DNA from: Candidatus Latescibacterota bacterium
GTDB lineage: Bacteria; Latescibacterota; UBA2968; UBA8231
Reading direction: 5' to 3'
Assembly (NCBI GenBank): GCA_965248265.1
Contig: CBDFJF010000001.1
Coordinates: 768,001 to 832,000, forward strand
Length of the DNA stretch: 64,000 nt
Within the stretch, counting starts at the first letter, position 1. Each line of letters starts with the position of its first letter. The notes under the pieces are model-generated. The model was not told where the DNA came from. It saw only the letters and a program-made list of their open reading frames with translations, and ran no database searches. Of the stretch, positions 13,854 through 51,999 are shown in pieces. A program made the translations under genes and the position numbers.

Positions 13854-13954
13854 CTCTAACAAACGGTTTACACTGCGCCGCCTTCAGCGGCTTGGCCTTC
13901 GGCAATCTGCCTTCGCTGTGCTCGACAGATTCGTAAACCGTAGAAACGTTACCG
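13854..13954 (+). repeat. attC site closing the TA cassette
   Basis: GCCTCTAAC is the exact inverse of GTTAGAGGC at 11839; CGGTTTAC..GTAAACCG stem; ends GTTACCG. Confidence 0.85.
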
Positions 13955-13981
13955 CCCGTCAGATCCTATATCTGATAGTCG
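13953..13981 (+). repeat. 11-7-11 inverted-arm site, left subtype
   Basis: CGCCCGTCAGA-TCCTATA-TCTGATAGTCG. Confidence 0.8.
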
Positions 13982-14033
13982 GTCTGCCAGGTAAAACGAC
14001 CGAAAAGGACGCAAAATTGCCCGTCCGGTGTAT

Positions 14034-14069
14034 TTGAGCGAACATTGGTTCGCCTACAAATAGTTAGCC
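14034..14069 (+). other. attI-like site 2
   Basis: GCGAACATTGGTTCGCCTACAAATA|GTTAGCC; GTTAGCCAAAAGCG pairs with CGCCTTCGGCTAAC ending at 14918. Confidence 0.55.
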
Positions 14070-14135
14070 AAAAGCGCCCGCCACCCGCTCTGGACACGAT
14101 GGGACGCAGAGAAACTCACAATAGGAGGGCACACA

Positions 14136-14879
14136 ATGGAACGCATCTTCCCCAACTTATATCGCTTTACTGACGAGCCTTCTCACAAGGGGCGGATATA
14201 TTCGTACCTCATCGTGAGGAAGGGAGGAAATCTACTTCTGCCATGCTTAGGAGGCGGTGCTGTAAGTGAACACCTCAAGGATATCGAGCGCATTGGCGGG
14301 GTGGATACTCAGTTCGTCACGCACAATCATGACATCGACGGTGCCTTGCAGGAAGCCGTCTACGCCCGCTTCGGCGCCAAGCTCTGCTATCACCGAGCCG
14401 ACCACAAGAAAGTGGTGGCAAAGACCAAATGTCCGACAGCGGAATTCAGTGACGATGGCCTGCAGTTGGGCTCTGACTTCCAGGCACTCTACTTCCCGAG
14501 TTGTTCGGTCGGCTCCAGTGTCTACCACTGGCGATATCGGGGGAAACACTTCCTGTTCACGAGCCACGTCATCAACATGGTCGAAGGCGACTGGGAGGTC
14601 GGTCTCGACCTTAAGAAATCCCCACCTAGTCTGGCCCCCCAGTTCGCAGAAATCGCCAAGCTGCCTATCGACTACACCATGCCGAATGTGTGCAGATACG
14701 GGCAGGAGGAGTTCCATAGGTTCAACGATTATACAAGGAAGGCCTTCTCCACGGCGTTGAGAGCAAAGACCCGGCGAGCAAAGAGTAGGGTCGACGCACC
14801 GACTGGCAACATTGTGATCAAGGTAGTGGGGCCCAGACGGTTTCAGAGTCTTACGAAGGTGCGCGACGACAGGAGCTGA
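14136..14879 (+). CDS. Metallo-beta-lactamase-fold-like protein (gene cassette)
   Basis: YSYLIVRKGGNLL, QFVTHNHD, FLFTSH; degenerate metal motifs; GGAGG RBS. Confidence 0.65.
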   Translation: MERIFPNLYRFTDEPSHKGRIYSYLIVRKGGNLLLPCLGGGAVSEHLKDIERIGGVDTQFVTHNHDIDGALQEAVYARFGAKLCYHRADHKKVVAKTKCPTAEFSDDGLQLGSDFQALYFPSCSVGSSVYHWRYRGKHFLFTSHVINMVEGDWEVGLDLKKSPPSLAPQFAEIAKLPIDYTMPNVCRYGQEEFHRFNDYTRKAFSTALRAKTRRAKSRVDAPTGNIVIKVVGPRRFQSLTKVRDDRS

Positions 14880-14911
14880 AGGAGGAGGCTAGCGGCACCC
14901 GATTCGCCTTC

Positions 14912-14993
14912 GGCTAACACGTCCATGCCCGGCTTCGGGCTGCGCCCTTCGCCAAACCGCATTCGCGGTTCGGGCACGGCGAAATCGTTAGGC
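14912..14993 (+). repeat. attC site
   Basis: GGCTAAC...GTTAGGC, with CCATGCCCG / CGGGCACGG stem. Confidence 0.8.
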
Positions 14994-15021
14994 GCAAACA
15001 GAAAGGCTCTTTTTTTTGGAA

Positions 15022-15275
15022 ATGAGCATGGCAATCAGTCGAGCTGGAGCCTGAACCGCACTGGCGTCATTGCGACCTTTATTCTTTTCGCCCTCTGGGT
15101 TCTCTTCAACCAGGGCAAGATGACCTCGCTGGGGATATTTGGTGGCAAACCCGGCCACATGTTCACCTGCGCCACGTGGATAGACATTTTAGCAGGGCTA
15201 TTCGTTCACGGTGTAATTTTTTGCATCTGCGGGGAGCAGGTTTTGGCATTTCAATCATCGCGAACTGGATTCTGA
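15022..15275 (+). CDS. Small membrane protein in cassette (start uncertain, possibly frameshifted)
   Basis: Two hydrophobic stretches (VIATFILFALWVLF; ILAGLFVHGVIFCIC) between two attC sites. Confidence 0.4.
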
Positions 15276-15310
15276 GGCGGTTCAGGACGTAGTGCTGTGT
15301 ATCTGTCAGC

Positions 15311-15403
15311 GCCAAACAACACTGTTCGCGCTGCGCGCCTTTCGGCGCTTGGCCTTCGGCACCCTGGCATTCGCCAGGGTTGTGAGATGGAAGAACGTTA
15401 CGC
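15311..15403 (+). repeat. attC site (R'' core degenerate)
   Basis: GCCAAAC..GTTACGC; first ~50 bp closely resemble attC 11766. Confidence 0.75.
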
Positions 15404-15406
15404 GCC

Positions 15407-16174
15407 GTGCTATTCCCGGAGTATGAGGAACTGTCTATCTCGATGACCAAGACATCCAGGGATAGTCTCGAAGTTGTGCAAGTCCACCATGGCTACGCCC
15501 GGTGGTCTGAGATATATGATATGCAGGACAATATGCTGATCATTCTGGAGGAGCCGCTGGTACGAGCACTGCTGGGAAACGTCCGTGGCCTCTCGGTCGC
15601 AGACATTGGTTGTGGCACCGGTCGGCACACCGTCCACATGGCTGAAGCGGGCGCTCAGGTAACCGCGATCGACTTCTCTCAGGAGATGATGGCGCGAGCC
15701 ATCGAGAAGACGAAAGAGTGGGACATCAAATTCGTTACGCACGACCTGACTGATCGTTTGCCCTTCGCCGACAATTCATTCGATCGCGTCCTCTGCTGTC
15801 TCGTTCTGGAGCACATTGCTGATCTGCACGGAATGATTGCAGAAATGGCGAGGATCTGTCGACCTGGAGGCTTCGTCCTCATAGCCGAACTGCACCCAGC
15901 GATGTTCCTCCGCGGCCTCCAGGCCCGGTTCACGGATCCAACGACAGGTCAGAAAGTCAACGTCCAGAGCAACCGCCACCTGATCTCTGACTATGTCAAT
16001 GCAGCCGTGAGGGCTAATTTACAGATCGACCGCATTGAAGAGCATCTTGCAGACGAACCCCTATTGGAGAAGTCGCCGAGAGCGAAGGAATACTGGAGCG
16101 CGTTCCGAGAGGACTTTGATCTGGGCTGGCCGATGCTACTGCTGGTGAAGTTGGGTAAACCATCACGCGCATGA
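15407..16174 (+). CDS. Class I SAM-dependent methyltransferase (gene cassette)
   Basis: VADIGCGTGRH, LPFADNSFDRV, ARICRPGG; start may be 15443. Confidence 0.92.
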   Translation: MLFPEYEELSISMTKTSRDSLEVVQVHHGYARWSEIYDMQDNMLIILEEPLVRALLGNVRGLSVADIGCGTGRHTVHMAEAGAQVTAIDFSQEMMARAIEKTKEWDIKFVTHDLTDRLPFADNSFDRVLCCLVLEHIADLHGMIAEMARICRPGGFVLIAELHPAMFLRGLQARFTDPTTGQKVNVQSNRHLISDYVNAAVRANLQIDRIEEHLADEPLLEKSPRAKEYWSAFREDFDLGWPMLLLVKLGKPSRA

Positions 16175-16254
16175 CACAACCGTGTGCAACTCCGGTCGCT
16201 ACGCTCCCCCGTCCCAACCCGGCTGCGGTAGGTTTTCACACGGCTGAACAATGG

Positions 16255-16283
16255 TGACCTGCTGATCCTATGTCTGATGGTCA
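16255..16283 (+). repeat. 11-7-11 inverted-arm site, right subtype
   Basis: TGACCTGCTGA-TCCTATG-TCTGATGGTCA; 27/29 identical to 34611..34639. Confidence 0.8.
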
Positions 16284-16471
16284 TTTTCGAATGACAGCCG
16301 CATTTGCGAACTCAAAGCAAGTATTTCCACGAGAATGCGCTCATCAAGGAGCCCGGGACTCGCGGGCTGGTGGTGCCTCCCGGCGAGTGTGGCAGACAGG
16401 CCCATGGGAACAAATCACTCATCGTGGGCTGGACAGCGCGGGACTACCTGCGGCTTTCTGCAAATGTCTGC

Positions 16472-17224
16472 CTAGAACCTTTCTTGCAGCAGCCGCGTGA
16501 TCGCGTTCGGCTTGCTGTAGTACGCACGTGTTGCAGCATCTGGATGTGCCCAGAGCCGCTTGGGAACGATCGTGTGGTTACTTATCGGCGGGCTCGAGGC
16601 ACGACCGCAATAGATGTGGACAGTGCGGCGCTCGACGTCACTGCGGCGAACGTTGCCCCCGTGGAACATGCCCGCGTTGAACACAACTGCCGTCCCACGT
16701 GGACCCTCGATATGGTGGGCCGCATCCAGCTCATAGTGCGCCAGCGGTGCCAGCTCGTCGCCGACAGCTGAGCCCGGCAGTACACTGAAGGTGTGCGTCG
16801 ACTCATCGACGTCGCTCAGGTAAAACGCGACGGATACGTAGTGAGAGGCAAAGGCTGGCGGTGATCCCAGCTCCGGCCAGCCATTTCCGTCTCGGTGCCA
16901 GTGGCAGTATGGCTTGCCGGCGTAGGGCTTGCGAATGTGTACCGTATGCTCTTCGGCGCGTAGGTGGGATCCGAGAATACCCTCGAGCAGTGGCATCAGA
17001 GTCGGCGGTCTCATTGTGACGTCCATCTCCTTGTATGCCAGCAGCGCGTGCGCGTTGAGGATTACGTGGCCGTCTTCCCGTTCGATCCAGAACGGCGTTT
17101 CGGCCGCCAGGTCGCGATCGATGGCAGCGTTGATGGCATCGACTTCCTCGACGCTCAAAGTGTCCAGCACAACAACGTAACCGAACTTGCGGTAGGTATA
17201 GAGCTGTTCCTGTGTGGATGTCAT
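16472..17224 (-). CDS. Phytanoyl-CoA dioxygenase (PhyH) family Fe(II)/2OG oxygenase
   Basis: YRKFGYVVV, WHRD, SVLPGS, MFHGG..R motifs. Confidence 0.88.
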   Translation of the reverse strand: MTSTQEQLYTYRKFGYVVVLDTLSVEEVDAINAAIDRDLAAETPFWIEREDGHVILNAHALLAYKEMDVTMRPPTLMPLLEGILGSHLRAEEHTVHIRKPYAGKPYCHWHRDGNGWPELGSPPAFASHYVSVAFYLSDVDESTHTFSVLPGSAVGDELAPLAHYELDAAHHIEGPRGTAVVFNAGMFHGGNVRRSDVERRTVHIYCGRASSPPISNHTIVPKRLWAHPDAATRAYYSKPNAITRLLQERF

Positions 17225-17483
17225 GAAATGTCCTTGCGGGAATCCGCGGGCATTGTGGATGGCGTCGGTGAGATTGCCTGAAGAGAGAGATAGCTTGTAC
17301 CAACCGATTATGCGCTAGTGCGCCCACGGCATCAATCTCCCCAACCCCTCTGCACAGTACCCGGAGCCCAGTGCCCCTCATACGAGTCGTCGGCTCCGGC
17401 CCGCGGACTATCAGACTGACGGACCGTACGCAAGCCGTGCCATGCCGGTGTCCAGATTTCCGCAACGATACCAGTTGGGAAGC

Positions 17484-18647
17484 TCACGATTGCAGATAGA
17501 TGAGGTCTCGTTCCTCGACAAGGTGATCGAGGCTGACTGCCTGACCGGGTCGTGGCACCGAAGTTCCCCAGACTCGCGCTCCTTTCAGACGGGTCGCTGA
17601 GACGCCAGCCCGATCCGCTACCAGGATGACATCGCTGGCCCGGTGAACGAGGATAGTTCGCTGTTGTGATTCGTCGGTTGGACGTTCGAGAAGGCAGACG
17701 TTAATCAATCCAAGGGCCTCGAGAAGCAAACCGGGAATCGACGCAAGCGAGTCGGGCTGATCAGTATCCACCTTCAGGCAGCGATCTTCGGACCAACTCT
17801 CACACAACGCGGTCGCCGACTCATCGACGTCGCCCGCGGCGCGTGTTCCCACCACGACAGTCGGCATCGGTACATCTCCGTCGACCCGGCTCTGCAGTAC
17901 GTCCTCGTCAAAACCAACACGGACAATGACCTCGGCATGCTCGACGTGAGCCTCGGCGAGGACGGCTCGTGCCGCTATTTCCTGTTCACGGGACAATTGC
18001 TCGCCCACAAACTTGATGCCCCCCTTTCCGCGAGCATGTAACACCGTGGGCGTGGGGCCAGGTATGGGGTGGATACAAGCTTCTGCCAGTTCCTCAAAGA
18101 CTGTCACCAACTGGGTAGTGACGTCGGCAGTGAGATCGACAACGATGACGATCATATCTGCCCCGGACAGGAGGTGGAGCAGTGGTCGCCCTGCACCCTG
18201 GCCGTCGGCGAGGCCGGGAACCACCGGCGGCGAATCTACCAGCTGCAGGGCTCCCCCTTCGCAGGGCAGCATACCAGGGAGGGGATGCGTTGTAGCAAAC
18301 GGATACGGTGCCACGACCGTAGCAGCACCTGTGAGGGCGCTAACCAGGGCAGACTTACCCACGTTTGGCACGCCTGCCACCACCACCCGTCCGTCTCCCT
18401 GACGCTTGACGTGGAAAGGATCGTGCTGACCGGCACGGGAACGCACCGCCTCATGGCCTTCGAGCCTGGCAACCTGCCGGCGCAATCTGTCCCGAAGATC
18501 CTTGTACGGGCCTTTCCACTCGTCGTGCAGGCCGGCCAGGTGTCGACGCAGGATACGCAGCTGCTCATCTTCGGCCCGACCGCGTAGCTCTTTCTGGATG
18601 TGGGACCAGAGGTCCTTGGCTGGCATGGGCATGACAGCGACATACAA
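17484..18647 (-). CDS. DRG/OBG-family GTPase-like protein with TGS-like C-terminus
   Basis: GVPNVGKS (G1), YPFATT (G2), DSPP (G3), ARVWG..GQAVSLDHLVEERD; start may be 18626. Confidence 0.8.
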   Translation of the reverse strand: MYVAVMPMPAKDLWSHIQKELRGRAEDEQLRILRRHLAGLHDEWKGPYKDLRDRLRRQVARLEGHEAVRSRAGQHDPFHVKRQGDGRVVVAGVPNVGKSALVSALTGAATVVAPYPFATTHPLPGMLPCEGGALQLVDSPPVVPGLADGQGAGRPLLHLLSGADMIVIVVDLTADVTTQLVTVFEELAEACIHPIPGPTPTVLHARGKGGIKFVGEQLSREQEIAARAVLAEAHVEHAEVIVRVGFDEDVLQSRVDGDVPMPTVVVGTRAAGDVDESATALCESWSEDRCLKVDTDQPDSLASIPGLLLEALGLINVCLLERPTDESQQRTILVHRASDVILVADRAGVSATRLKGARVWGTSVPRPGQAVSLDHLVEERDLIYLQS

Positions 18648-18798
18648 CGCGAACTGCTACAATGGCAAGTTTTTGAGGGTCCGATCCCTGGCTCGTCCAC
18701 CAGCTACGATGGAGACCGTTCGCACCGGTACACGCAGGTGACCCACGGATAATGAGGACGATGGTCATTACTGAAGGTCTGACTCCCGATAATTCCGA

Positions 18799-19486: not shown

Positions 19487-19859
19487 TTGGGCAAATTCAT
19501 CTGGCGATGTGAGGCAAATTACGATATCAGGGATAGCCTCGTAACGCTAACTCTCAGGTCCTCAGACTCACGATAACCCTCGTTAAAAGGAGTCCACCGT
19601 CTTCTATGTACGGCTGTGAGGTTGCGCCCGCCTTCCACTTGATACATGCGAATCGCGTTATCGAAAATCTGATGACATGGTGACTATCAGTTGCTCACGT
19701 ATATGGCCTCCGTTCTGTCATTCCAATGGCCATCCATTGAAGATGGGCAACAGAGCCGTGAATCGCTACTGGTCAGAATGGAGTTTGCACGCTGCCGGGG
19801 TTTTTTCGTCTAGAGGTCGTCAGCAACTTCGGCCCCAACATCTCGGATGTCGTTCACGA

Positions 19860-19961: not shown

Positions 19962-20047
19962 CGTCTGCTCCTTTGCCTTGGAGACGGCCCTATGATAGCT
20001 TTTGTCCGCGATGATGACATTACCAACGCCGCGCTGAAGGCAGGTCA

Positions 20048-22402: not shown

Positions 22403-22403
22403 T

Positions 22404-33095: not shown

Positions 33096-34523
33096 TTGCC
33101 TGACCGGGATAAGATGTTAGCACAGCTCACCGACGAGGCGGAGCACCTGCGGCGGGACAGTGCGGCGATGCGCCGGGAGCTGGAAATCGAAGCGGCCCTG
33201 GAGCGCGTGCGTGTCAAGGCGTTGGGGATGCAGAAGAGCGAGGATCTCGTCGAGGTGAGCGGTGTTCTCTTCGAGGAGTTTTCGCGGATGGGAATTTCCC
33301 CGGTGCGCTCGTCGATCACGATCTGGAACGAGGCCGAAGACCAATGGCAGTCCTGGGTGACGCGGACGTTTTCGACGAGGTCGGTAGTGCACGATGATTC
33401 GCTCAAAGAGATTTGCGCCAGATTTCCCGAATATGGGGAAGGGTTCGCGGCCTGGCAGCGAGGAGAGCCGCACTATGTCAGTGAGTTCAGCGGAGAGGAG
33501 CGGATCAATCACCTCCGCTCGGTAAAGGCATTCTACAGCAGATCGGATGAGTGGCTCCAAGAAACGATAGCCAAAACACCCGATTGCTTTTTCATTTATC
33601 AGATCTTCTTTTCACAAGGAAATCTCGAAATCAGTCTGAGTGATTCCATGGGGGAATCGGAGTTGCAGATCGCCAGGCGCTTCGCGGACGTGTTCGACAT
33701 TGCCTACCGGCGCTACGGAGAATTGCAGCAAGCCGAAGCGGCGCGGGTGCAGCTGGAAGAGCAGAACAAGGCGCTGGAGGAGAGCTTGCGCCTGCTGCGC
33801 GAAACGCAAAATCAGATGTTGCAGCAAGAGAAGATGGCTTCGCTGGGCGACCTAGTGGCCGGCGTGGCGCACGAATTGAACACGCCGCTGGGAGCGATCC
33901 GCAGCATGCACGACACGCTGGTGCGGACGGTCGGCAAGCTCAAGGCCGATGCGGCTGATCCCGGCCAGGCGACGATTTTCAAGGTGATCGCCGACGCCGA
34001 TGAATTGATCACCGGAGGCATCGAGCGGGTGAGTTCGATCGTCGCCAGCCTCAAGAACTTCGCACGGTTGGACGAGGCCGAGTTTCAGGTGGTCGACCTG
34101 CACGAGGGCATCGACAGCGCGTTGACCTTGCTCGGCAGCCAGTTGCAGGGTCGGATCGCGGTAGAAAAGGATTACTGCGATATCCCGCCGGTCCGCTGCG
34201 CCCCGGGCCAATTGAACCAGGTCTTCATGCACCTGCTGAAAAACGCGATACAGGCCATCGAGGGCGAGGGGCGAATCGCGATTAACACTTTCGTCGACGG
34301 AGACCAGATCTGTATCTGTTTCAGCGATACGGGCCGGGGCATGGCGCCAGAGCAGGTGGCGCGGCTATTCGATTTCGACTTCCAGGCCGGGGACGGCCGG
34401 GTGAAGATGGGATTCGGCTTGGCCTCCGATCACAAGATCCTCCAGGACCACCGGGGCGAACTGAAGGTGGCCAGCGAGATGGGTCGGGGCACGGAAATGA
34501 CGGTCGTGCTACCGGTGGACTGA
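33096..34523 (+). CDS. Sensor histidine kinase with single GAF-like domain; paralogue of 6816..8840
   Basis: GVAHELNTP, QLNQVFMHLLKNA, DTGRGM, FDFDFQA..KMGFGLA. Confidence 0.9.
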   Translation: MPDRDKMLAQLTDEAEHLRRDSAAMRRELEIEAALERVRVKALGMQKSEDLVEVSGVLFEEFSRMGISPVRSSITIWNEAEDQWQSWVTRTFSTRSVVHDDSLKEICARFPEYGEGFAAWQRGEPHYVSEFSGEERINHLRSVKAFYSRSDEWLQETIAKTPDCFFIYQIFFSQGNLEISLSDSMGESELQIARRFADVFDIAYRRYGELQQAEAARVQLEEQNKALEESLRLLRETQNQMLQQEKMASLGDLVAGVAHELNTPLGAIRSMHDTLVRTVGKLKADAADPGQATIFKVIADADELITGGIERVSSIVASLKNFARLDEAEFQVVDLHEGIDSALTLLGSQLQGRIAVEKDYCDIPPVRCAPGQLNQVFMHLLKNAIQAIEGEGRIAINTFVDGDQICICFSDTGRGMAPEQVARLFDFDFQAGDGRVKMGFGLASDHKILQDHRGELKVASEMGRGTEMTVVLPVD

Positions 34524-34610
34524 CCCGTATCCGGTTCGCATCGCATACTGCGATATTCTTCTAGCGGGTACGCAGTCCCAACCGCTGCGCGGGTTTATGA
34601 GAGCGAGTGA

Positions 34611-34639
34611 TGACCTGCGGATCCTATGTCTGATGTTCA
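34611..34639 (+). repeat. 11-7-11 inverted-arm site, right subtype
   Basis: TGACCTGCGGA-TCCTATG-TCTGATGTTCA. Confidence 0.8.
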
Positions 34640-34689
34640 CATGCGGTCAAGGAGACATTGATCGCAACTGCAGCACTGTGTTCTTATCT

Positions 34690-34875
34690 TCACCGCAGTT
34701 TCCCACCACGCCGTACGCCATACCATTCTATAATAGCTTCCGCGACTTCGTCGATAACCCTATCGGAATCGTAGTAACCCCTTTCGGCTCTTTTCCTGAT
34801 CAACCCCAAACGCTTGCTGTCTGCAGGAGTCACTCCATCATGCAAGGGAGAGATCCCCTGTTCTGGCTTTTCCAT
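34690..34875 (-). CDS. Small FlgM-like (anti-sigma-28 C-terminal-like) protein
   Basis: KRLGLIRKRAERGYYDSDRVIDEVAEAII pattern. Confidence 0.5.
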   Translation of the reverse strand: MEKPEQGISPLHDGVTPADSKRLGLIRKRAERGYYDSDRVIDEVAEAIIEWYGVRRGGKLR

Positions 34876-35130
34876 CTGAAGCCTACGGTGTCTCGCTATT
34901 CCACGTCACACTGTCCTCTTCTTGTTATATCGGCAGGTGCGCTGCTGCCAGAGTACTTCTGCTACATATGATCCGTACCAGGCAGGAACAGAGGGACTGA
35001 GCAACCGGCACCGTTGTCCCTTTCGCCTCTTTTTTGCACATTTCTGTCGACTGAAGTCGGCTGTTGGATCACTTTCGAGGGACACAGGGCTGCTCACGCC
35101 CTGTGAGAAGGCACAGCCTGAGGAACTCTG

Positions 35131-35493
35131 ATGGAAGGAACGTGGTCGATCTCCCTGTGGATGCTGATTACCATCACCGTCGTGATTGCGGTGAAGGTGA
35201 TTACGGGGACCCTTCTGAACCGGAAGAGAAAGGAGCTGTCGGCCATCCGCCAGGAATTGCTGGCCGCCAGGGCGAGATTGGAGCACGCCGATCAACGCCA
35301 TCAGGCTGCCGAGAGCATCATGTCCTTCGGTGAACGACAGAAAGCCGACCTGCGCCACAGGATCGAGCTATGCACGGAAGAGCTGGAGCAACTGACAACA
35401 TCAGGCTCTGAGGGGGAAGTCAAGGAGCGCGTCGACCCGGAGGTGCCGCTTCACATGCGGACAAGAGGAGAGGATCTGTTTGGCGAGAAGTAG
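35131..35493 (+). CDS. Membrane-anchored coiled-coil hypothetical protein
   Basis: N-terminal TM helix followed by a heptad-rich region; GAGG RBS. Confidence 0.7.
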   Translation: MEGTWSISLWMLITITVVIAVKVITGTLLNRKRKELSAIRQELLAARARLEHADQRHQAAESIMSFGERQKADLRHRIELCTEELEQLTTSGSEGEVKERVDPEVPLHMRTRGEDLFGEK

Positions 35494-35765
35494 TGTCCCC
35501 TGGGCACAAGCCAGCCACATGTCAGGCTACCTGTTCGCTCTCATAGAACACTGATTACCGTGCTGCGCAGCAAACTACAGTCATGACTGACAATTCCTTT
35601 ACACAGCAAGCTTACCGTTCGGATAGATGCGTTCGTTGCGGGGCACGTCGACTACACCCGTGCGGACGTAATCCGGCTCGGGATCGATAATGTAATACGA
35701 CGACGGCGGGCGTCACCCTCCGACGCAGCTACGGCAAGACACTGCGAGAAGGTGTCGGTGAGGTT

Positions 35766-36701
35766 CTAACCCGGGGCGCCAAGCTCCGCGCTGTGCCGGC
35801 GGGTGGTTTCTTCGACGAAGCGCTGAAAGATCGCAAAGTTGTGTTCGGTGAAGTGGCAGTAGACGAAAAAACGTCCCTCAACGCGGATCCTGACATACTG
35901 GGCGCCGGCGATGCGGCGAAGCTCTTCGAGACTCACGGGATAGGCCATTTCCTCGTCATAGGAATTGCGACCATAGCCGGGTTGGCCGTAGTAGGGGCGG
36001 CCGTAGCTGTAGTGGCGGGGAAGGACGTTGCCGTAAACGTACGGATACGGATACCCGAGGTAATACCGGACCGGGTAGAGGTCGTAGCGATGAAACCGGC
36101 CAATCTGGGGAGTGGTAAGGTCGTTGAGGGTGACGGGATAGGGTGGGCGGAGGTAGAGATTGTAGTAGGGCCGGTAGTAGTGGCGGTAAATGGCGCTATG
36201 GCGGGGGCGGGAAGACCGCCGATAGCGATGGCGACTACCCACGTGCTGCATTCCTGCGGCATAGAGGACGGCGGCCTTATCGGCCGAGGCGACCCGGACG
36301 GGGGGACCAGTCACGGCGAGTTGACCCGATTCCGCTGAATTTTCCCCGTAACCGTAGCGGTTCTGCTTACCCGAATCGGAGCCACCCAGCGTCATGAAGG
36401 CCATCCGTTCCCCATCCACGAGCAGGACGAGAGATTCTCCCTGCTTGATTTGCAACGGGTGGCGAGCCTCGTACGCTACGTGCAGCAAGTACTGGGGCTC
36501 GCGGTCCGGAGTGAACCGCTCGGAGATGTTCAACTGCACCGATTCGGATCCCTGGTTGCCGCCCAGAAAGTTTTCGACCATGTCGAAGGCGGTGAAGCCG
36601 TCGAATTCGTCGTGGATTTCGTACACCTTGTATTTCGGTCGATGCGAACATCCGCCTGCTATGACGGCCAAGGCAAGCAGGAGAAGAGGAGTTCGGCTCA
36701 C
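35766..36701 (-). CDS. Lipoprotein with Tyr/Arg/Pro-rich low-complexity insertion
   Basis: Lipobox IAGGC; globular N- and C-terminal parts separated by a YYRPYY/YLGYPYPYVYG tract. Confidence 0.75.
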   Translation of the reverse strand: MSRTPLLLLALAVIAGGCSHRPKYKVYEIHDEFDGFTAFDMVENFLGGNQGSESVQLNISERFTPDREPQYLLHVAYEARHPLQIKQGESLVLLVDGERMAFMTLGGSDSGKQNRYGYGENSAESGQLAVTGPPVRVASADKAAVLYAAGMQHVGSRHRYRRSSRPRHSAIYRHYYRPYYNLYLRPPYPVTLNDLTTPQIGRFHRYDLYPVRYYLGYPYPYVYGNVLPRHYSYGRPYYGQPGYGRNSYDEEMAYPVSLEELRRIAGAQYVRIRVEGRFFVYCHFTEHNFAIFQRFVEETTRRHSAELGAPG

Positions 36702-36794
36702 GGTCGACTTCCGAACACAGTGTCCGTCCGTTTTTTGGGGAGTAGGCGGCGGTGCTACATATCAAACGTTCCTGAGTCCGAGACGTTCCGGGTG

Positions 36795-37285
36795 CTACTT
36801 GAGCGAAGCACGGCTGACCTGACAGCCCACACACTGGCCACTGTGCGAGAGGTAGCTCGTGCCGCTGCGCACCTCGCGGACTTGTGTTTTGCCTGCTGCC
36901 GTCAATTCGATCCGGGTGCCGATGCCGTCCCTGTTGCTGCGTGTGCCGACCGTCTTCACGAATAGGTAGTTGTTGGCGTTGCCGCCGTCATTGCGGTAGA
37001 GCGTGTTCGACGGATGCTCACCTCGGAAAAACCGTCGAAGCTGGACCCGTTCGCGACGTAGAGATCTACGTCTCCGTCGTTGTCGTAGTCGAAAAAGGCC
37101 GAACCGCCGATGGAGCCCTCGACGATGTGGCGGAGCTCCTTGCCCGAAGTGCTGAGCGCGTCGACACCGACCTGTGCCGCTACGTCGACGAATTCCACCG
37201 CAATCGAATCGGTCCCAGCTTGGGCAGGTGCTGGGGACGACTGCGTCACCTGGAGGAGTAACGTGACGATCAGGAGCTGTCTCAA
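36795..37285 (-). pseudogene. CRTAC1/ASPIC-UnbV gene with large internal deletion
   Basis: FVDVAAQVG, FFDYDNDGDVDLYVANG, then LYRNDGGNANNYLFVKTVGTRSNRDGIGTRI..QVREVRSGTSYLS. Confidence 0.75.
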
Positions 37286-45648: not shown

Positions 45649-45678
45649 TATCCTGTCCGTTGCGAGATCCAGAGCCCG

Positions 45679-48059: not shown

Positions 48060-48069
48060 CGCTCAGGCC

Positions 48070-48435
48070 TCACTTTTCCAGGATGAACTCGCACCCGAGC
48101 CCATAGGTGGTTTCCTCACCTGCCATCATCAGCGCCATCTCGGGGAACTTGACGATGCGCCAGCCGTCGAGCATTGCTTCGTGCACGGTCTGGTATGGCC
48201 AGTCATCTGGATGGTCGGGACCGTCGTGCACGCCGTCGGCGTCTACGAGGGACATGCCGCTGATTCGGGATGTGACCAATGTGCTTTCGGCCTGAAGGTA
48301 GAGCAGCCGCTGAGGTGTTTGACTGTTCGCACTTTCCAGAGCCTGCAACAGATCCTGCTCGCTCAGTTCGCCGGCGCGAAACTTATCCAGACACTGATGC
48401 AATTGTCGCTTCACTGGCTCCATGGCGTCATCCAC
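48070..48435 (-). CDS. Small hypothetical protein immediately upstream of PhyH
   Basis: WPYQTVHEAMLDGWRIVKFP..GCEFILEK; 10-bp gap to the PhyH gene. Confidence 0.75.
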   Translation of the reverse strand: MDDAMEPVKRQLHQCLDKFRAGELSEQDLLQALESANSQTPQRLLYLQAESTLVTSRISGMSLVDADGVHDGPDHPDDWPYQTVHEAMLDGWRIVKFPEMALMMAGEETTYGLGCEFILEK

Positions 48436-48470
48436 CTACTCGGTATGGCAATCAAAATTCAAAATCGCGA

Positions 48471-50120
48471 TTATTCGATCCAGAACGAATACAGCTTGGC
48501 GTTCCTGAGATGCAACGACAGGCGCACATACCGATCTTTCAGCTCGGCCAGTGTCTCGTTGCGGCTCCAGCCGACGTAGCTGCGGGTGGAATCCGCGCAG
48601 ATCGCCTGGCAGTCATCCTCACCAAAGCCGTCGATGGCGCTGCCGTCCTCGGCCATCACCGAGGCGCGCACGTAACCATTCGTGGCAACGTCTGCGTTCA
48701 CGAAGAGTTTGCCCTCGCCTTCAAAGACCAGGGGCCGGGTGATCACGACGCCCGCCTCGTCGCCGGCGTTGAGTGAGGCGAAGCCGTCGCGACGAAGGAT
48801 GGCCACGCCCGTCGACTGGACCCAAAGGGTCTTGAGACCGTCGGTATCACCGCCCCGGTAGTAGAACCACAGCTCGTCGTTCTTCAACACCGGTCCGCCA
48901 ACGGTGTGCAGGTTGACCATGCGCAGGTAGTGAGACTTCCAGCTGTCCTCCGATCCCAGGTCGATGAAGGGTCGGCGCTCGCCTAGGTAGTAGAAGTGCC
49001 GCCCGTCCCGACTGCCGGCCAGACGAATCCAATTCCGCTTGATGTAGGGTCGGGTCGGCATCAAGTCGCGCTTGCGGCTCTCTTCCCTGCTGACCGGAAT
49101 GTACCACGACATCGAAAAGCAATTCAGCCACATGCTCTCGTAGGGGAAGCCGCTCGCCTCGTAGATGCCGTACATCCCGGGCATCTTCGCGTCCTCACCG
49201 TCGGGGCAAGCGTACAGGCGCGGACTGGACCAGTGGATCAGGTCGTCACTCTCGCACATCGACACCGCCCGCGCGACATGGAAGACCGGCGACATCCGCA
49301 AATCGGGGCCGATGATGCGCTTGGTGTTGGCGATGTACTTGTGCAGCTTCGGGTCCCAGCGGACGCGCAGCATGCTGGTGCCCGTCGGCCGCTCGTAGGG
49401 TGCATGAAAGCCAATCTGCCCCCCTCCAGGCAGCGACGTCGTGCACTTGCGCGTCCATCGGATTCCGTCGGGCGAGATGTAGAGATCGTGAAGGCTGCCC
49501 CGCACCGGTGGCGGCGGATCGGGTTGTGGAGGAGGTTTCAAACCGAGCCACGGCGGACGCCTTGATGCGGGTATGACAGCGTACGGCCAGATCACCTCCG
49601 TGCCAGAGCCGCCGATCGCCTTCCATCGCTGGCGTTCATCGGGATCGTCCGGTTCGTAGAACACACCCAGCCCACCGATGGCGATGACATTGTTCGGCTC
49701 GTCGGCCGGCGCGTCCGCCGGGCGATCGCAGACATCGAGATTGGGTTTCTCCCAGTGCACGCCGTCGCTGGAGAAAGCTACACGGCTGCCGTGCGCGCCA
49801 TAATACAGGCGATAACCGTGCTCCTCGTCCGGGCCGACGAAATTCGCTGCGGCGCCAGTCATGAGCGGGTTGGCCGGATGGTCCTGAGGACTGTGGAACT
49901 CGCGCTTCAGGCCGAGCCGGTGCGCGACAAGGTAGTCATCCACGAAAAGCTGGCGCGTGGTGTCGATCTTCATCCGCCAGAGGCATAGGTCCTCCGGAAA
50001 AATCAGCCGCTCGTTGAGCAGGATCCCGTAGCCCTCGGGAAACGCCGACCAGTCTGTGACCAGGTCCGATTCGTCCCACGGGCGCTTGACGACGCGTTCA
50101 TCGACCTCCACCTTGGCCAT
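48471..50120 (-). CDS. GH32/43-like beta-propeller protein, paralogue A3
   Basis: RPWDESDLVTDWSAFPEGYGILLNERLIFPEDLCLWRMKIDTTRQLF shared with A1/A2; GAGGAG RBS. Confidence 0.8.
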   Translation of the reverse strand: MAKVEVDERVVKRPWDESDLVTDWSAFPEGYGILLNERLIFPEDLCLWRMKIDTTRQLFVDDYLVAHRLGLKREFHSPQDHPANPLMTGAAANFVGPDEEHGYRLYYGAHGSRVAFSSDGVHWEKPNLDVCDRPADAPADEPNNVIAIGGLGVFYEPDDPDERQRWKAIGGSGTEVIWPYAVIPASRRPPWLGLKPPPQPDPPPPVRGSLHDLYISPDGIRWTRKCTTSLPGGGQIGFHAPYERPTGTSMLRVRWDPKLHKYIANTKRIIGPDLRMSPVFHVARAVSMCESDDLIHWSSPRLYACPDGEDAKMPGMYGIYEASGFPYESMWLNCFSMSWYIPVSREESRKRDLMPTRPYIKRNWIRLAGSRDGRHFYYLGERRPFIDLGSEDSWKSHYLRMVNLHTVGGPVLKNDELWFYYRGGDTDGLKTLWVQSTGVAILRRDGFASLNAGDEAGVVITRPLVFEGEGKLFVNADVATNGYVRASVMAEDGSAIDGFGEDDCQAICADSTRSYVGWSRNETLAELKDRYVRLSLHLRNAKLYSFWIE

Positions 50121-50170
50121 TACGCGGTCTCCTCTAGTTGAATGCGAGCATATCATAATACACTAAAACG

Positions 50171-51532
50171 ATGAACCGACAACCGGATCTGACCAAAAGT
50201 CAATTGTTCTTAGACGAAACCTGGATCGAGCAAGCCCAACGGCTGACACGGCTCTGGCACAAGGCGGATATTTATCCCGAGCCGTTGGTGCGACCGGACA
50301 AGCCGTGGGAGGCCCCGGGCATCGTCTTCTACGGGACGGTGTTTCGCCACGAGGGCAAGTGGCGCATGTACTACTGTGTCGAACGATCGATCCTCTGCCT
50401 GGCCGAAAGCGTCAACGGATTGCAGTGGCACAAACCAGTGGTCGGCCGCGTGGAATTCCAGGGCAGCAAGGAGAACAACATCGTCTTCATCGGGATCAAC
50501 TGTCCCTCTATCATGCATGACCCCGGTGACTGCGACGCCCCGTTCAAGATGATCACCATCGGCACCCGCGAGCTGGGCACCGGCGGCATTCGCGGCCTGA
50601 TCAGCAAGGACGGCTTGGAATGGACACTGCTGAAAGAACCGCTGATCTCCAAACCGCCGGCCAGCGACGTCCAATATCTCTGGTTCAAGAAAGTACAGGG
50701 AAAATACATCATCGTACACAAGACCGCGCGTGAGCGGGCCCGACGGTGCGTAGCGATCGCCGAGAGCGAGGACTTTCGCAAGTTCTCCGACTCCCGCCTG
50801 ATCCTTCAATCGGACCTGATCGACGAGGCCGACATCGAGTATCACGGGATGGTTGGTTTTCCTTACTCCGACATGTACCTCGGGTTGGCCGAGCGATGGG
50901 TCAATGTCCCCGGGGTCATGAACCACATCGAGTTGCTGCTGACCTGGAGCTACGACCTCGAGCAGTGGCACCGACCCGCGTCGAGGGAGCCGTTCATCGG
51001 CCCCACTTTCCCTTGGAACCGGGCCTGGAACACCTGCAACTCGGCTGGCCCGATTCTGGAGGGCAACCAGTTGTGGTTTTACTTCTGCGGCAAGAGCGGT
51101 TCGCACTTTCATGTTAAGTCGGGCCCGCCCCGCTCTAGCGGCATCGGCCTGGCCACGGTCACGGTCGACCGGTTCGCCTCGATTTCGGCCAGTTTTATGG
51201 AAGGCCGACTCGTCACCAGGCCGATGATCTGGCCAGGCGGTGACCTGATGCTGAACGCGTCCACCACGCGGCACTTCGAGGTCTACCCCTACGACGGGGG
51301 AGGCGCCATGGCCGTCGACGTATGGGACGAATCCGGCAAGCCGATCGACGACTTCTCCGATACTAATCGCGCCATCTTTGAGGGCAATGCGCCGGTGCGC
51401 GGACTGGTGGACCCGGCCACGATCCGCTGGCCCGGCGACCGAAGCCTCAATGAATTGCGCGGCCGGAGCATCAGGCTAGTCTTCACCATGCGGGACTCGC
51501 ACTTGTTCAGCTTCCGCAGCAGCGGTGCGTGA
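50171..51532 (+). CDS. GH32/43-like beta-propeller protein, paralogue B2
   Basis: DLTKSQLFLDE, TVDRFASI, WPGGDL.LNASTTRHF, HLFSFRSSG. Confidence 0.8.
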   Translation: MNRQPDLTKSQLFLDETWIEQAQRLTRLWHKADIYPEPLVRPDKPWEAPGIVFYGTVFRHEGKWRMYYCVERSILCLAESVNGLQWHKPVVGRVEFQGSKENNIVFIGINCPSIMHDPGDCDAPFKMITIGTRELGTGGIRGLISKDGLEWTLLKEPLISKPPASDVQYLWFKKVQGKYIIVHKTARERARRCVAIAESEDFRKFSDSRLILQSDLIDEADIEYHGMVGFPYSDMYLGLAERWVNVPGVMNHIELLLTWSYDLEQWHRPASREPFIGPTFPWNRAWNTCNSAGPILEGNQLWFYFCGKSGSHFHVKSGPPRSSGIGLATVTVDRFASISASFMEGRLVTRPMIWPGGDLMLNASTTRHFEVYPYDGGGAMAVDVWDESGKPIDDFSDTNRAIFEGNAPVRGLVDPATIRWPGDRSLNELRGRSIRLVFTMRDSHLFSFRSSGA

Positions 51533-51636
51533 TCGGCTCACCGCGCCGACGTCACCGCGAGTCGCGTGTACGGAATGTCCCTCGCTTGTGCCGGGACCTG
51601 CGCGTCGTGATAATGAGCGTGACAGTCCGGCGGCTC

Positions 51637-51665
51637 CGCCCGTCAGTTCCTATATCTGACGGGCG
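51637..51665 (+). repeat. 11-7-11 inverted-arm site, left subtype
   Basis: CGCCCGTCAGT-TCCTATA-TCTGACGGGCG (arms 10/11 complementary); 25/29 identical to 13953. Confidence 0.85.
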
Positions 51666-51699
51666 TCCCGGCAAGCACAACCTACCAGTCGAGGGATCA

Positions 51700-51943
51700 G
51701 TGCTCAAAGTCCGCGCAGCCACTGGTGATGACGCGGTTACTATCTCTGCGTTGAACCATGAATCGCTCGCATCAACGGATGGGAATCGGCACGGCACTCT
51801 TTGACAGCGTAAAAGACTGGGCAAATGAGCTGGACATCAAGTGCTTAGGACTGGATGTGTGGTCTTTCAACCAAGACGCGATCGCTTTCTATAAGGACAT
51901 GGGGTTTGAGATAGCCGAGCACACCATGTCGATGGATTTGTGA
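51700..51943 (+). pseudogene. GNAT acetyltransferase with internal deletion/frameshift
   Basis: VLKVRAATGDDAVTISALNHE joined out of frame to HQRMGIGTALF..LDVWSFNQDAIAFYKDMGF. Confidence 0.8.
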
Positions 51944-51970
51944 CCAGCTTCACTGACTCAAGCCCACAAC

Positions 51971-51999
51971 CGATCATCGCATCCTATGTCTGATGGTCG
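51971..51999 (+). repeat. 11-7-11 inverted-arm site, right subtype
   Basis: CGATCATCGCA-TCCTATG-TCTGATGGTCG. Confidence 0.8.

What the first reader, a model, noticed from the sequence alone, without database searches (positions are those of the whole stretch)
13953..51999. Family of 29-bp 11-7-11 sites in left/right pairs: candidate recombinase-mobilised cargo-module system
Seen: five intergenic sites in the same orientation, each with 11-bp imperfect inverted arms around a 7-bp asymmetric spacer. The left subtype has spacer TCCTATA: 13953 CGCCCGTCAGA/TCTGATAGTCG and 51637 CGCCCGTCAGT/TCTGACGGGCG (25/29 identical). The right subtype has spacer TCCTATG: 16255 TGACCTGCTGA/TCTGATGGTCA, 34611 TGACCTGCGGA/TCTGATGTTCA (27/29 identical to 16255) and 51971 CGATCATCGCA/TCTGATGGTCG. 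Twice a left site and a right site bracket accessory cargo (13953-16283 and 51637-51999). Known: inverted arms around a 6-8 bp directional spacer is the core-site architecture of tyrosine recombinases (dif 11-6-11, loxP 13-8-13, lambda 7-bp overlap). The sequence is not the E. coli dif consensus. Inference: these are attL/attR-like ends of non-autonomous modules moved by a recombinase encoded elsewhere, analogous to pdif modules. Conservation of the spacer argues against a plain TF operator or terminator.
Basis: partly seen in the sequence, partly recalled or inferred. Interest (0 to 1): 0.88.

Follow-up and report, generated by a model that had tools for sequence, protein, structure and literature searches.

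The report
Co-oriented 29-bp palindromic sites in cassette zone
A marine bacterium carries about fifteen copies of a 29-base palindromic site, all pointing the same way within one 350-kb cassette-rich stretch of its chromosome; they look like cut-and-join sites for moving gene modules, but this has not been shown.

Summary
The five window sites belong to a family of 11 strong and 4 weak copies. All lie on the + strand of contig C1 between 664,724 and 1,014,375. No copy was found elsewhere in the 7.3-Mb genome, in 40 relatives, or in two public collections.

The TCCTATR core and the inner right arm are the most conserved parts. The zone is a decayed integron landscape with attC sites, integrase-less attI-like platforms and insertion sequences. 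Most sites follow an ORF, as attC sites do.

Four coincidences suggest junctions:
- An attC is cut off 3 nt before one site.
- A complete attC ends 1 nt before another.
- A shared 91-bp unit starts at the first base of two sites.
- A 97%-identical metagenome contig stops aligning 1 nt after a site.

The A/G core subtypes alternate in the 11 strong sites, which has about a 0.013 chance, but not once the weak ones are added.

The sites are not pdif-like: orientation is direct, the spacer is 7 bp and invariant, and the arms differ. No cognate enzyme, empty site or circle was found.

My estimates: recombination site 0.4, cis-regulatory or RNA hairpin 0.3, IS91/ISCR-type end 0.15.

The parts
13953..13981 (+). 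29-bp site with core TCCTATA ('left'/A type). It starts 1 nt after the GTTA of an attC. The site and the next 62 bp are shared with the site at C1:963,721.
   Evidence: 44.5 bits
16255..16283 (+). 29-bp site with core TCCTATG ('right'/G type), 80 nt after the stop codon of a methyltransferase cassette ORF. A minus-strand PhyH gene follows.
   Evidence: 41.2 bits
34611..34639 (+). 29-bp site of G type with no A-type partner among the strong sites, 87 nt after a histidine-kinase ORF. It is 27/29 identical to the site at 16255.
   Evidence: 40.4 bits
51637..51665 (+). 29-bp site of A type with the best palindrome (10 of 11 arm pairs), 104 nt after a 453-aa ORF. The aligned part of a 97%-identical metagenome contig ends at 51666.
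   Evidence: 41.6 bits
51971..51999 (+). 29-bp site of G type, 27 nt after the GNAT remnant and 130 nt before a DUF6785/DUF6784 ORF.
   Evidence: 41.1 bits
51700..51943 (+). GNAT acetyltransferase remnant, the only cargo of the 51637-51999 pair. The N-terminal and C-terminal parts lie in two different frames.
13982..14069 (+). Unit attached to the right of site 13953. It holds 62 bp shared with C1:963,750-963,811 and then an attI-like sequence: the CGAAC-N4-GTTCG palindrome at 14039-14053, followed by CTACAAATAGTTAGCC. The attI-like part resembles the attI next to the IntI-like gene.
11765..11855 (+). attC site of the about 95-nt family.
13853..13957 (+). attC site that closes the NadS-like cassette. 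Its GTTA ends at 13952, directly before site 13953.
14911..14996 (+). attC site inside the 13953-16283 module.
15310..15406 (+). attC site inside the 13953-16283 module.
11834..13952 (+). NadS/HTH cassette, 98-99.7% identical to the first cassette of the integron-like locus at C1:1,755,317-1,756,120. An IS3-family element interrupts it at 12015-13326.
14136..14879 (+). 247-aa ORF with no family match, the first cargo gene after site 13953.
15407..16174 (+). 255-aa SAM methyltransferase, the last cassette-type ORF before site 16255.
50171..51532 (+). 453-aa ORF with no Pfam match. Its nearest Atlas clusters are unnamed hypothetical proteins, and the nearest clusters that carry a family (lower scores) are BNR/sialidase-like. 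It is a homologue (23% identity, E 2e-17) of the 468-aa ORF that precedes the site at C1:963,721.

Best explanation
The 29-bp elements are a lineage-restricted family of cassette-boundary recombination sites. Each has two imperfectly inverted arms of about 11 bp around an almost invariant, asymmetric core, TCCTATR. They usually sit just 3' of an ORF, as attC sites do. They lie only in one plastic 350-kb zone that is littered with integron debris: attC sites, integrase-less attI-like platforms and insertion sequences.

Proposed mechanism. A DNA strand-transferase binds the two arms, cuts at the borders of the core and exchanges strands between two sites. The enzyme is most probably a tyrosine recombinase of the Xer/IntI type. 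Because all sites point the same way, recombination between two of them would excise the intervening segment as a circle carrying one site. The reverse reaction would insert such a circle at any existing site. Repeated insertion would produce the clustering and uniform orientation that are observed.

Shown: the sites exist, share one orientation, are clustered and show this conservation pattern; they lie in an integron context; several homology boundaries coincide with site edges.

Inferred: the enzyme class, the cleavage positions, and that the sites are or were active.
For: 1. 15 of 15 matrix hits of 20 bits or more lie on one strand within 4.8% of the genome. The 12-mer core is 5 of 5 on + in the window against 0.28 expected.
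2. The architecture is 11-7-11. The core and the inner right arm are the most conserved columns and the left arm is looser. Such asymmetry is usual for tyrosine-recombinase core sites; this is from established knowledge, not a call.
3. Junction coincidences:
   - attC model positions 6-53 of 94 end 3 nt before site C1:860,735, and the 3' half is missing.
   - A complete attC, and a 99.7% duplication of it, end 1 nt before window site 13953.
   - The only flank homology between two sites (window 13953 and C1:963,721) starts at the site itself and runs 62 bp rightward, with unrelated DNA on the left and unrelated ORFs downstream.
   - X9 contig 29 matches 926 nt with 28 other letters and its aligned part ends at 51666, one base past a site.
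4. The zone holds 14 of the genome's 27 attC-family hits, 13 of them on +. It also holds four attI-like platforms without an integrase, and three of the mini-arrays they head end at a 29-bp site.
5. Genes flanking the sites belong to unrelated families: radical SAM, TauD, APH, GNAT, DUF6785, methyltransferase, GrpB and histidine kinase.
6. Paralogous ORFs keep a site downstream despite deep divergence. The Metallophos-CBM9 genes are 47% identical, and 2 of 3 copies have a site while the third has a half-site. The 453/468-aa genes are 23% identical.
7. A and G cores alternate in the 11 strong sites, as in only 6 of 462 orderings.
8. Two Xer-like recombinase genes lie inside the zone.
Against: - No recombinase gene is adjacent to any site. 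The nearest are 11 kb and 21 kb away.
- No empty site, deletion joint at a site or circle junction was seen (contigs only).
- There is no compositional jump across the sites compared with 462 control intergenic points, or 226 within the region; p ranged from 0.15 to 0.65 except one value of 0.035.
- The flanks of cognate A/G pairs show no more relation than non-cognate pairs.
- Alternation breaks when the 4 weak sites are added.
- 11 of 15 sites lie between co-directional + ORFs and none between minus ORFs. 9 of 15 lie 12-154 nt before a + start codon. A transcription-linked element would also look like this.
- Arm mismatches are G.T 14 against A.C 2, and weak covariation is present. Both hint at a single-stranded + strand hairpin rather than a duplex site.
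- The IntI-like protein lacks the integron-specific insertion.
- No relatives carrying such sites were available for comparison.
Confidence: 0.4

Rival explanations
1. The sites are a cis-regulatory element tied to transcription. One form is an RNA hairpin in intergenic or 3'-untranslated mRNA, with a 11-12 bp stem and a conserved (U)CCUAU(R) loop, bound by a protein or protecting or processing the transcript. The other form is a DNA operator next to promoters of accessory genes in this zone.
For: - Site orientation follows local gene orientation: 11 of 15 sites lie between + ORFs, 3 are convergent, 1 is divergent, and 0 lie between minus ORFs, in a zone that is only about 55% + coding.
- 11 of 15 sites lie within 200 nt after a + stop codon, and 9 of 15 lie 12-154 nt before a + start codon.
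- G.T wobble exceeds A.C 14 to 2 in the arms, and the R of the core faces an invariant T.
- 84.3% of cells are paired against 80.7% in shuffles, reached by 10 of 500 shuffles; the covariation score was reached by 8 of 500.
- Paralogous ORFs keep the site downstream.
- There is no compositional break at the sites.
Against: - The flanking genes are functionally unrelated.
- Hairpin stability is uneven, with z from -3.7 to +0.25.
- No sigma-70-like promoter or intrinsic terminator lies at the sites, and there is no Rfam family match.
- Three sites have no + gene downstream.
- Two sites flank a dead 244-nt gene.
- This reading does not explain the restriction to one 350-kb zone, the truncated attC, or homology starting exactly at site edges.
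- At the level of columns the wobble bias is only 7 to 2.
- The half-site centres are 18 bp apart, which is unusual for a dimeric operator (established knowledge).
Confidence: 0.3
2. The sites are ends of rolling-circle IS91/ISCR-type elements, oriIS- or terIS-like. A hairpin on one DNA strand is recognised and nicked by a Y2 HUH transposase, and one-ended transposition carries along adjacent DNA of variable length.
For: - The genome has 16 Y2_Tnp matches, against 0 of 14 control genomes, and two degraded ones lie in the zone.
- IS91-family ends carry imperfect subterminal palindromes, move as single strands and make no target duplication (PMC13181058, passages).
- The printed oriIS of ISCR27 and ISCR1 ends in TTCCTATACC (PMC8894482 and PMC13023784, passages). 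Site 51637 reads TTCCTATATC, which is 9 of 10.
- ISCR elements are typically fused to integrons.
- This genome already shows a co-oriented array of IS91-type end repeats at C2:1,134-1,157 kb.
- The wobble bias fits a single-stranded hairpin.
Against: - No Y2 transposase gene lies upstream of any site. The two remnants are 2.6 kb or more away, and one is on the other strand.
- The native IS91-like ends of this genome are 215-285-bp repeats with a different terminus.
- In ISCR the motif is terminal, whereas here it is the loop of a palindrome followed by a conserved right arm.
- A ten-base resemblance can be chance.
- GT(C/T)N follows only 4 of 11 sites.
Confidence: 0.15
3. The sites are relics without present function: copies of a dead miniature or REP-like repeat, or of an old segmental duplication.
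For: - Copy number is low.
- Four copies are degenerate, and half-sites occur at 841 kb and 661.7 kb.
- Paralogous genes lie beside several sites.
- No partner enzyme was found.
Against: - The sites stay 75-93% identical while the adjacent paralogues have fallen to 23-47% protein identity, which implies selection or homogenisation.
- No Y1/RAYT gene was found in the 92%-complete assembly.
- There are no terminal inverted repeats or target duplications around the pairs.
Confidence: 0.1
4. The sites are chromosome-organisation sites: polar fork-arrest sites, or sites for macrodomain or partition proteins.
For: The sites are polar and dispersed over hundreds of kb in a single orientation. A ParB-like ORF lies next to one Xer-like gene.
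Against: - The zone lies 1.3-1.7 Mb from the skew-defined terminus and about 2 Mb from the origin.
- There is no opposed second group of sites.
- Sites were not found in 40 relatives of the family and class.
- Two sites lie only 334 bp apart.
Confidence: 0.03

Closest known systems
pdif / dif modules of Acinetobacter plasmids (XerC/XerD)
   Same: Both have short sites with two roughly 11-bp arms and a directional spacer that bound small accessory-gene modules lacking their own recombinase. In both, recombination needs matching spacers and directly oriented partners for excision (PMC13141974, passages).
   Different: pdif sites have a 6-bp spacer that varies between sites, conserved and distinct XerC and XerD arms, and neighbouring sites in inverse orientation (C and D modules alternate). 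Here the spacer is 7 bp and almost invariant, the arms vary and are unrelated to those printed in Table 1 of that paper, and 15 of 15 sites are direct. The segments range from 0.3 to 66 kb and lie on a chromosome.
Integron attC sites and gene cassettes (including CALIN arrays)
   Same: A site follows an ORF, is co-oriented with it and with all other sites, and the cargo is unrelated accessory genes. Structure is partly conserved through compensating arm changes. The sites lie physically among true attC sites and attI-like platforms.
   Different: The 29-nt sites have no R''/R' (..AAC / GTT..) boxes. They are half the length of the shortest usual attC and do not match the attC model. Spacing is tens of kb rather than about 1 kb. 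The only IntI-like protein lacks the attC-specific insertion.
IS91 / ISCR rolling-circle elements (oriIS, terIS)
   Same: Both have subterminal imperfect palindromes, a TTCCTATA(C/T)C-like motif, mobilisation of adjacent DNA of variable length, association with integrons, and single-strand chemistry. Y2 transposases are abundant in this genome.
   Different: There is no transposase next to the sites. The motif lies in a hairpin loop and not at a terminus. The native IS91-like ends of this genome are different.
Simple core-type targets of tyrosine recombinases (dif, lox and FRT class)
   Same: Inverted arms around a 6-8-bp asymmetric spacer, with spacer identity between partners.
   Different: No cognate enzyme has been identified. 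There are many dispersed copies rather than one or two. The sites are not at the replication terminus.

Membership tests
pdif/dif module sites | XerC arm, 6-bp spacer and XerD arm, with a conserved XerD arm | tested here: not met
   The spacer is 7 bp. The arms (consensus CGACCGTCnGA / TCTGATGGTCG) are unlike the arms printed in Table 1 of PMC13141974.
pdif/dif module sites | Neighbouring sites are inversely oriented (C and D modules alternate) | tested here: not met
   15 of 15 sites are on the same strand.
pdif/dif module sites | Recombination by host XerC/XerD | not testable with these tools
   Xer-like genes exist, but their activity cannot be tested here.
Chromosomal dif | A single site at the replication terminus | tested here: not met
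   The skew maximum is at C2, about 3.46 Mb. No matrix hit of 14 bits or more lies there, and the 15 copies lie 1.3-1.7 Mb away.
Integron attC | R''/L''...L'/R' structure with ..AAC and GTT.. cores, about 55-140 nt | tested here: not met
   The attC HMM matches only the flanking attC sequences and never the 29-bp site. No GTT core lies within the site.
Integron attC | Follows a cassette ORF and is co-oriented within the array | tested here: met
   11 of 15 sites lie within 200 nt after a + stop codon. All sites and 13 of 14 regional attC sites are on +.
Integron attC | A bona fide integron integrase in the genome | tested here: not met
   The best candidate scores 239.6 bits against a cut-off of 265 and lacks profile positions 178-232. 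No other candidate was found in the 92%-complete assembly.
IS91/ISCR ends | A Y2 HUH transposase gene a few hundred bp upstream of oriIS | tested here: not met
   None of the 16 Y2_Tnp matches lies upstream of a site.
IS91/ISCR ends | Conserved terminal motif and subterminal imperfect palindrome | tested here: inconclusive
   7 to 9 of 10 letters match the printed ISCR motif (against 67). A palindrome is present, but the motif lies in its loop.
IS91/ISCR ends | Target tetranucleotide (GTTC, CTTG or GTCC) abutting oriIS | tested here: inconclusive
   GT(C/T)N follows 4 of 11 right arms. The cleavage point is unknown.
Tyrosine-recombinase core site (generic) | Inverted arms of 11-13 bp around an asymmetric 6-8-bp spacer that partners share | tested here: met
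   84% of arm cells pair. The core reads TCCTAT in 9 of 11 strong sites.
Tyrosine-recombinase core site (generic) | Recombination products: hybrid sites, empty sites or circles | tested here: inconclusive
   Only boundary coincidences were found. No joint at a site appeared among the listed joints, and 176 joints were not shown.
REP/BIME with RAYT | High copy number and a Y1 (RAYT) transposase gene | tested here: not met
   There are 15 copies. PF01797 gave 0 matches (the assembly is 92% complete).

The most novel reading that the evidence does not exclude
The sites are the boundaries of a second cassette system, distinct from attC, that is interleaved with a decaying integron. Each 29-nt hairpin site travels with its upstream ORF. 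A recombinase acting on it swaps modules from 0.3 kb to tens of kb. These modules include whole integrase-less mini-integrons made of a site, an attI-like platform and attC cassettes. The window module 13953-16283 would be the type example.
Probability: 0.2. Interest if true: 0.85.

Novelty: new variant of a known kind. Interest (0 to 1): 0.6.

Why it matters
If the sites are active, they define a modular gene-exchange system in a poorly studied marine lineage. The lineage is probably in the PVC group, but that assignment is weak.

The system would combine features of integron cassettes and of dif-type modules. Like cassettes, each site follows an ORF, all sites share one polarity, and the cargo is accessory genes. 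Like dif-type modules, the site is short, with two arms and a spacer.

It could also move whole cassette arrays. That would give a testable route by which integron arrays are fragmented and scattered into integrase-less clusters.

If the sites turn out to be RNA or operator elements, the finding is an ordinary lineage-specific regulatory motif. The integron debris around it would remain the more interesting feature.

Tried and rejected
**Insertion into a hairpin or attC.** By eye, the left flank of an A site seemed complementary to the right flank of its G partner. An all-against-all test of 11 x 11 flanks of 90 nt gave cognate scores of 12-18 (17 for 819648/819982, 16 for 860746/921099), within the background of 10-19. 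Own-flank scores were 10-16. I rejected this idea.

**Missing attC half.** The 3' half of the truncated attC was not found to the right of any of the 15 sites.

**Composition.** There is no GC or tetranucleotide jump at the sites.

**Extended right-end homology.** Only sites 16255 and 34611 share a loose CCCAAC..CTGCG upstream. An alignment of six G sites shows nothing general.

**Promoter, terminator and RNA-family searches.**
- Promoter and terminator scans found nothing at the sites.
- Rfam found only the ALIL pseudoknot of the IS3 element.
- Single-strand folds were uneven.

**Public collections.**
- A strict 28-nt pattern gave 9 single hits in genome contigs and 13 in metagenome contigs, with 2-7 of 11 arm pairs, in unrelated taxa. 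One lies in a signal-peptide coding region.
- None of six checked loci is related to this genome, except a 246-bp 74% match from L024.
- In 40 relatives, hits were at the level of the control pattern, and the 7 hits I inspected have 1-5 arm pairs.

**Enzyme and element searches.**
- Nothing informative appeared in repeats around the two Xer-like genes.
- No T4SS coupling protein and no Y1 transposase were found. Only a resolvase fragment lies in the zone.

**Protein comparisons that were negative.**
- The 247-aa and 237-aa ORFs are unrelated.
- The GNAT remnant is unrelated to the GNAT at 866 kb.
- The two methyltransferases share only the SAM motif.
- The third in-zone paralogue of the 453-aa gene has no site downstream.

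**Literature.** The four 12-mers occur in 10 papers. The 8 that were listed are unrelated to this finding. I therefore found no printed description of this site, on the basis of that one search only.

**Read laying.**
- Bins 34567-35900 had about zero depth in X5, X7 and X8, while 33900-34566 was covered. I treat a part without cover as no evidence.
- X7 record 14 aligns only from 52086, which is 87 bp right of site 51971-51999 and not at the site.
- For X9 record 29, which is on the minus strand, the table does not say on which side the 289 unaligned letters lie.
- No RNA holder was listed.

**Closed or unavailable sources.**
Its twin in the same batch failed on a missing field.
- Supplementary files of papers were not consulted. 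Those of PMC13181058 list IS91 end sequences and may bear on the IS91 rival.

Full report
**1. Observation**

The core TCCTATRTCTGA occurs 5 times in the window against 0.28 expected, and 0 of 100 shuffles reached 5.

The window is C1:768,001-832,000 of a 7.32-Mb assembly in two contigs, with 59.5% G+C and 92% completeness. Genome-wide the core has 9 matches. Eight lie on C1 +. The ninth, on C2, has 3 of 11 arm pairs and is chance. The reversed control pattern has none.

Allowing up to 2 core mismatches together with arm pairing adds C1:921,099, 963,732 and 984,488 (core starts). These are also on +.

A weight matrix built from these 11 sites gives 15 hits of 20 bits or more. All are on C1 +, between 664,724 and 1,014,347. 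The four new ones start at 743,113, 865,985, 903,935 and 1,014,347. The next best scores are 17.5 (C1, minus strand) and about 15-16 (C2). The lowest leave-one-out score is 20.2.

Invariant or nearly invariant columns are G2, C4, C5, C8, T12-T17 (TCCTAT), T19-A23 (TCTGA), G25 and C28. The inner left arm is looser.

**2. The family is not shared with available relatives**

- Among 40 genomes of the same family and class (none of the same genus is held), the core occurs at the rate of the control pattern. The 7 hits I inspected have 1-5 of 11 arm pairs.
- A strict 28-nt pattern found 9 isolated hits in genome contigs and 13 in metagenome contigs. All were poor palindromes in unrelated taxa.
- Near-identical strains do exist in sequencing runs. 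Three other labelled organisms hold 0.32-0.42 of the sampled words, and marine or seawater metagenomes hold 0.24-0.27.

**3. Setting: a decayed integron landscape**

The sequence to the left of window site 13953 is 99.7% identical over 627 bp to C1:1,755,494-1,756,120, and the identity stops one base before the site.

That second copy is the first cassette next to a 301-aa tyrosine recombinase. Its best family match is 'integron integrase' at 239.6 bits, below the cut-off of 265. Its best solved relative is IntI4, PDB entry 2a3v. It lacks the segment corresponding to IntI4 residues 175-235, which are profile positions 178-232. So it is IntI-like, but it fails a defining feature of integron integrases.

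Beside it lie an attI-type sequence and an array of attC sites of about 95 nt with ..TAAC and GTTA.. ends. A model of this attC family finds 27 copies in the genome:
- 4 at that locus;
- 9 on C2;
- 14 in C1:662-1,032 kb, of which 13 are on +.

Four of these attC sites lie in the window, at 11765-11855, 13853-13957, 14911-14996 and 15310-15406.

The attI-type sequence contains a CGAAC-N4/5-GTTCG palindrome followed by ..ACAA..AGTTAG. From recall, not tested, the palindrome resembles a LexA box. The sequence recurs without any integrase at C1:661.79 kb, 782.04 kb (window 14031-14069), 841.09 kb and, truncated, at 963.8 kb.

Each platform heads a short cassette array, and three of those arrays end at a 29-bp site (664,724; 784,255 = window 16255; 860,735).

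The zone also carries IS3- and IS481-family copies and has an odd, flat GC skew. Gene orientation in the zone is mixed, about 55% +.

**4. Evidence that the sites are junctions**

(a) At C1:860,735 the attC model aligns over positions 6-53 of 94 and stops 3 nt before the site. The rest of the attC is absent.

(b) At window 13953 a complete attC ends 1 nt before the site.

(c) Window 13953 and C1:963,721 share the site plus 62 bp to the right (84% identity). Nothing is shared to the left, and the ORFs that follow are unrelated. So a unit made of a site, 62 bp and an attI-like sequence has its left border at the first base of the palindrome in two places.

(d) A contig of an independent marine metagenome (X9 record 29) matches 50741-51666 with 28 other letters and 2 gaps. 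Its aligned part ends one base after site 51637-51665. The table does not say on which side the 289 unaligned letters lie.

**5. Evidence against, or pointing elsewhere**

- No recombinase gene is next to a site. The two Xer-like genes in the zone (312 and 280 aa) are 21 and 11 kb from the nearest sites. Nothing site-like lies around them.
- Flanks of cognate pairs are not related beyond background.
- Composition does not change across sites.
- By my crude ORF calls (longest ORFs with a high third-position G+C), 11 of 15 sites lie between + ORFs, 3 are convergent, 1 is divergent and none lies between minus ORFs.
- By the same calls, 11 of 15 sites follow a + stop codon within 200 nt, and 9 of 15 precede a + start codon by 12-154 nt.
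- The flanking genes are unrelated in function. However, two families recur upstream of sites. The first is the Metallophos-CBM9 paralogues at 741 kb and 858 kb (47% identical), plus a third fragment at 840.5 kb that is followed by a half-site. The second is the 453-aa and 468-aa ORFs (23% identical, E 2e-17). A third in-zone paralogue of the latter family has no site.
- The sites therefore seem to travel with the upstream ORF. That fits a cassette logic, but it fits a 3'-untranslated RNA element equally well.
- Arm mismatches are G.T 14 against A.C 2, or 19 against 2 with the pair T12/R18 included. Pairing and covariation slightly exceed shuffles, reached by 10 and 8 of 500. This favours a hairpin on the + strand as single-stranded DNA or RNA. 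The cells are not independent, though, and by column the bias is 7 to 2.
- Folding energies are uneven.

**6. The IS91/ISCR lead**

The genome has 16 matches to the Y2 rolling-circle transposase family, against 0 of 14 control genomes.

Passages I read say the following about the IS91 family (PMC13181058; PMC13023784):
- its ends carry imperfect subterminal palindromes;
- it inserts as a single strand beside a GTTC, CTTG or GTCC tetranucleotide;
- it makes no target duplication;
- it can carry along neighbouring DNA.

The printed oriIS of ISCR27 and ISCR1 ends in TTCCTATACC (PMC8894482; PMC13023784). Site 51637 reads TTCCTATATC.

Against this lead:
- No Y2 gene precedes any site.
- The two remnants in the zone are misplaced.
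- The native IS91-type ends of this genome are 215-285-bp repeats with another terminus.

I keep this as a rival at 0.15.

**7. Comparison with known systems**

pdif sites have a 6-bp variable spacer, conserved and distinct XerC and XerD arms, and alternate in orientation (PMC13141974, passages). All three features were tested here and are not met.

The sites are also not:
- the chromosomal dif, given their position and copy number;
- attC sites;
- REP/RAYT elements.

They do meet the generic architecture of a tyrosine-recombinase core site.

For integron background I saw only search listings and abstract starts of PMC4889954 (IntegronFinder, CALIN) and of bioRxiv 10.1101/2022.09.11.507474 (cassette insertion outside att sites).

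**8. Verdict**

This is a real, strictly polar, zone-restricted repeat family. My probabilities are:
- recombination or cassette-boundary site, with a tyrosine recombinase the most likely enzyme: 0.4;
- transcription-linked hairpin or operator: 0.3;
- IS91/ISCR-type end: 0.15;
- relic without function: 0.1;
- chromosome-organisation site: 0.03.

The lineage is probably in the PVC group. The hints are an ECF sigma factor that scores 82.6 bits, below the 124.55-bit cut-off, against the subfamily model named for Rhodopirellula/Verrucomicrobium, Atlas neighbours from Planctomycetota, Lentisphaerota and Spirochaetota, and a weak DNA match to a Pirellulaceae MAG. This assignment is weak.

Noticed in passing
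L001:9213-14639 (C1:1,754,213-1,759,638): An integron-like locus. It holds an IntI-like recombinase of 301 aa that lacks the integron-specific insertion, an attI with a CGAAC-N5-GTTCG palindrome, and at least 4 attC cassettes. The cassettes include a NadS/HTH ORF and a Gp49/HTH toxin-antitoxin pair. An IS481 copy is inserted.
   Followed up: partly
window 11834-13952 and L001:10317-11120: The same NadS-like cassette occurs twice at 98-99.7% identity. The window copy is split by a 1,313-bp IS3-family element (12015-13326; ALIL pseudoknot at 12343-12459). This implies recent cassette movement although no bona fide IntI was found.
   Followed up: partly
C1:661,790-661,830; window 14031-14069; L008:9075-9115; L014:~11790-11815: Four attI-like platforms without an adjacent integrase, each followed by attC cassettes. 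The copies at 841 kb and 661.7 kb keep only a right-arm-like GATGCTCG plus GTTTT.CC of the 29-bp site.
   Followed up: partly
C2:3,899,193-3,907,683 (L017): A second array of 8 attC sites, all on +, with no integrase called next to it. A tyrosine recombinase and a resolvase lie about 22 kb further on.
   Followed up: no
C2:1,134,270-1,156,520: Seven co-oriented copies (98.6-100% identical) of a 72-285-bp repeat that forms the 3' end region of an IS91-family element. They are spaced 3-6 kb apart. This looks like an array built by one-ended rolling-circle transposition. There are 16 Y2_Tnp matches genome-wide.
   Followed up: partly
C1:300,000-1,100,000: Cumulative GC skew rises and then runs flat here, while the rest of C1 falls steadily. 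The origin is at about C1 2.94 Mb and the terminus at about C2 3.46 Mb. The site zone lies inside this anomaly.
   Followed up: no
window 51700-51943: A GNAT acetyltransferase reduced to an N-terminal stretch and a C-terminal motif-A part in different frames.
   Followed up: yes
L009:6540-8388 (C1:858,540-860,388): A Metallophos-CBM9 paralogue that reads through one TAG and changes frame near its end, so it is probably a pseudogene. A further C-terminal fragment lies at C1:840,550-840,943.
   Followed up: partly
window 36568-37234: Summed contig depth is very high (248-482) in all four laid runs, with many loose ends at 37048-37101. This is a widely shared or repetitive coding motif.
   Followed up: no
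L014:13646-14732 and at least 7 other places: A 1,086-bp IS481-family element is present in at least 8 copies at 99.9-100% identity. The 1,313-bp IS3-family element has about 15 copies.
   Followed up: no
L003:5700-7591 and L004:3263-4518: The two Xer-like recombinase genes in the zone each overlap an upstream ORF. One partner is a 318-aa ORF with no family match. The other is a 143-aa ParB-like ORF.
   Followed up: no
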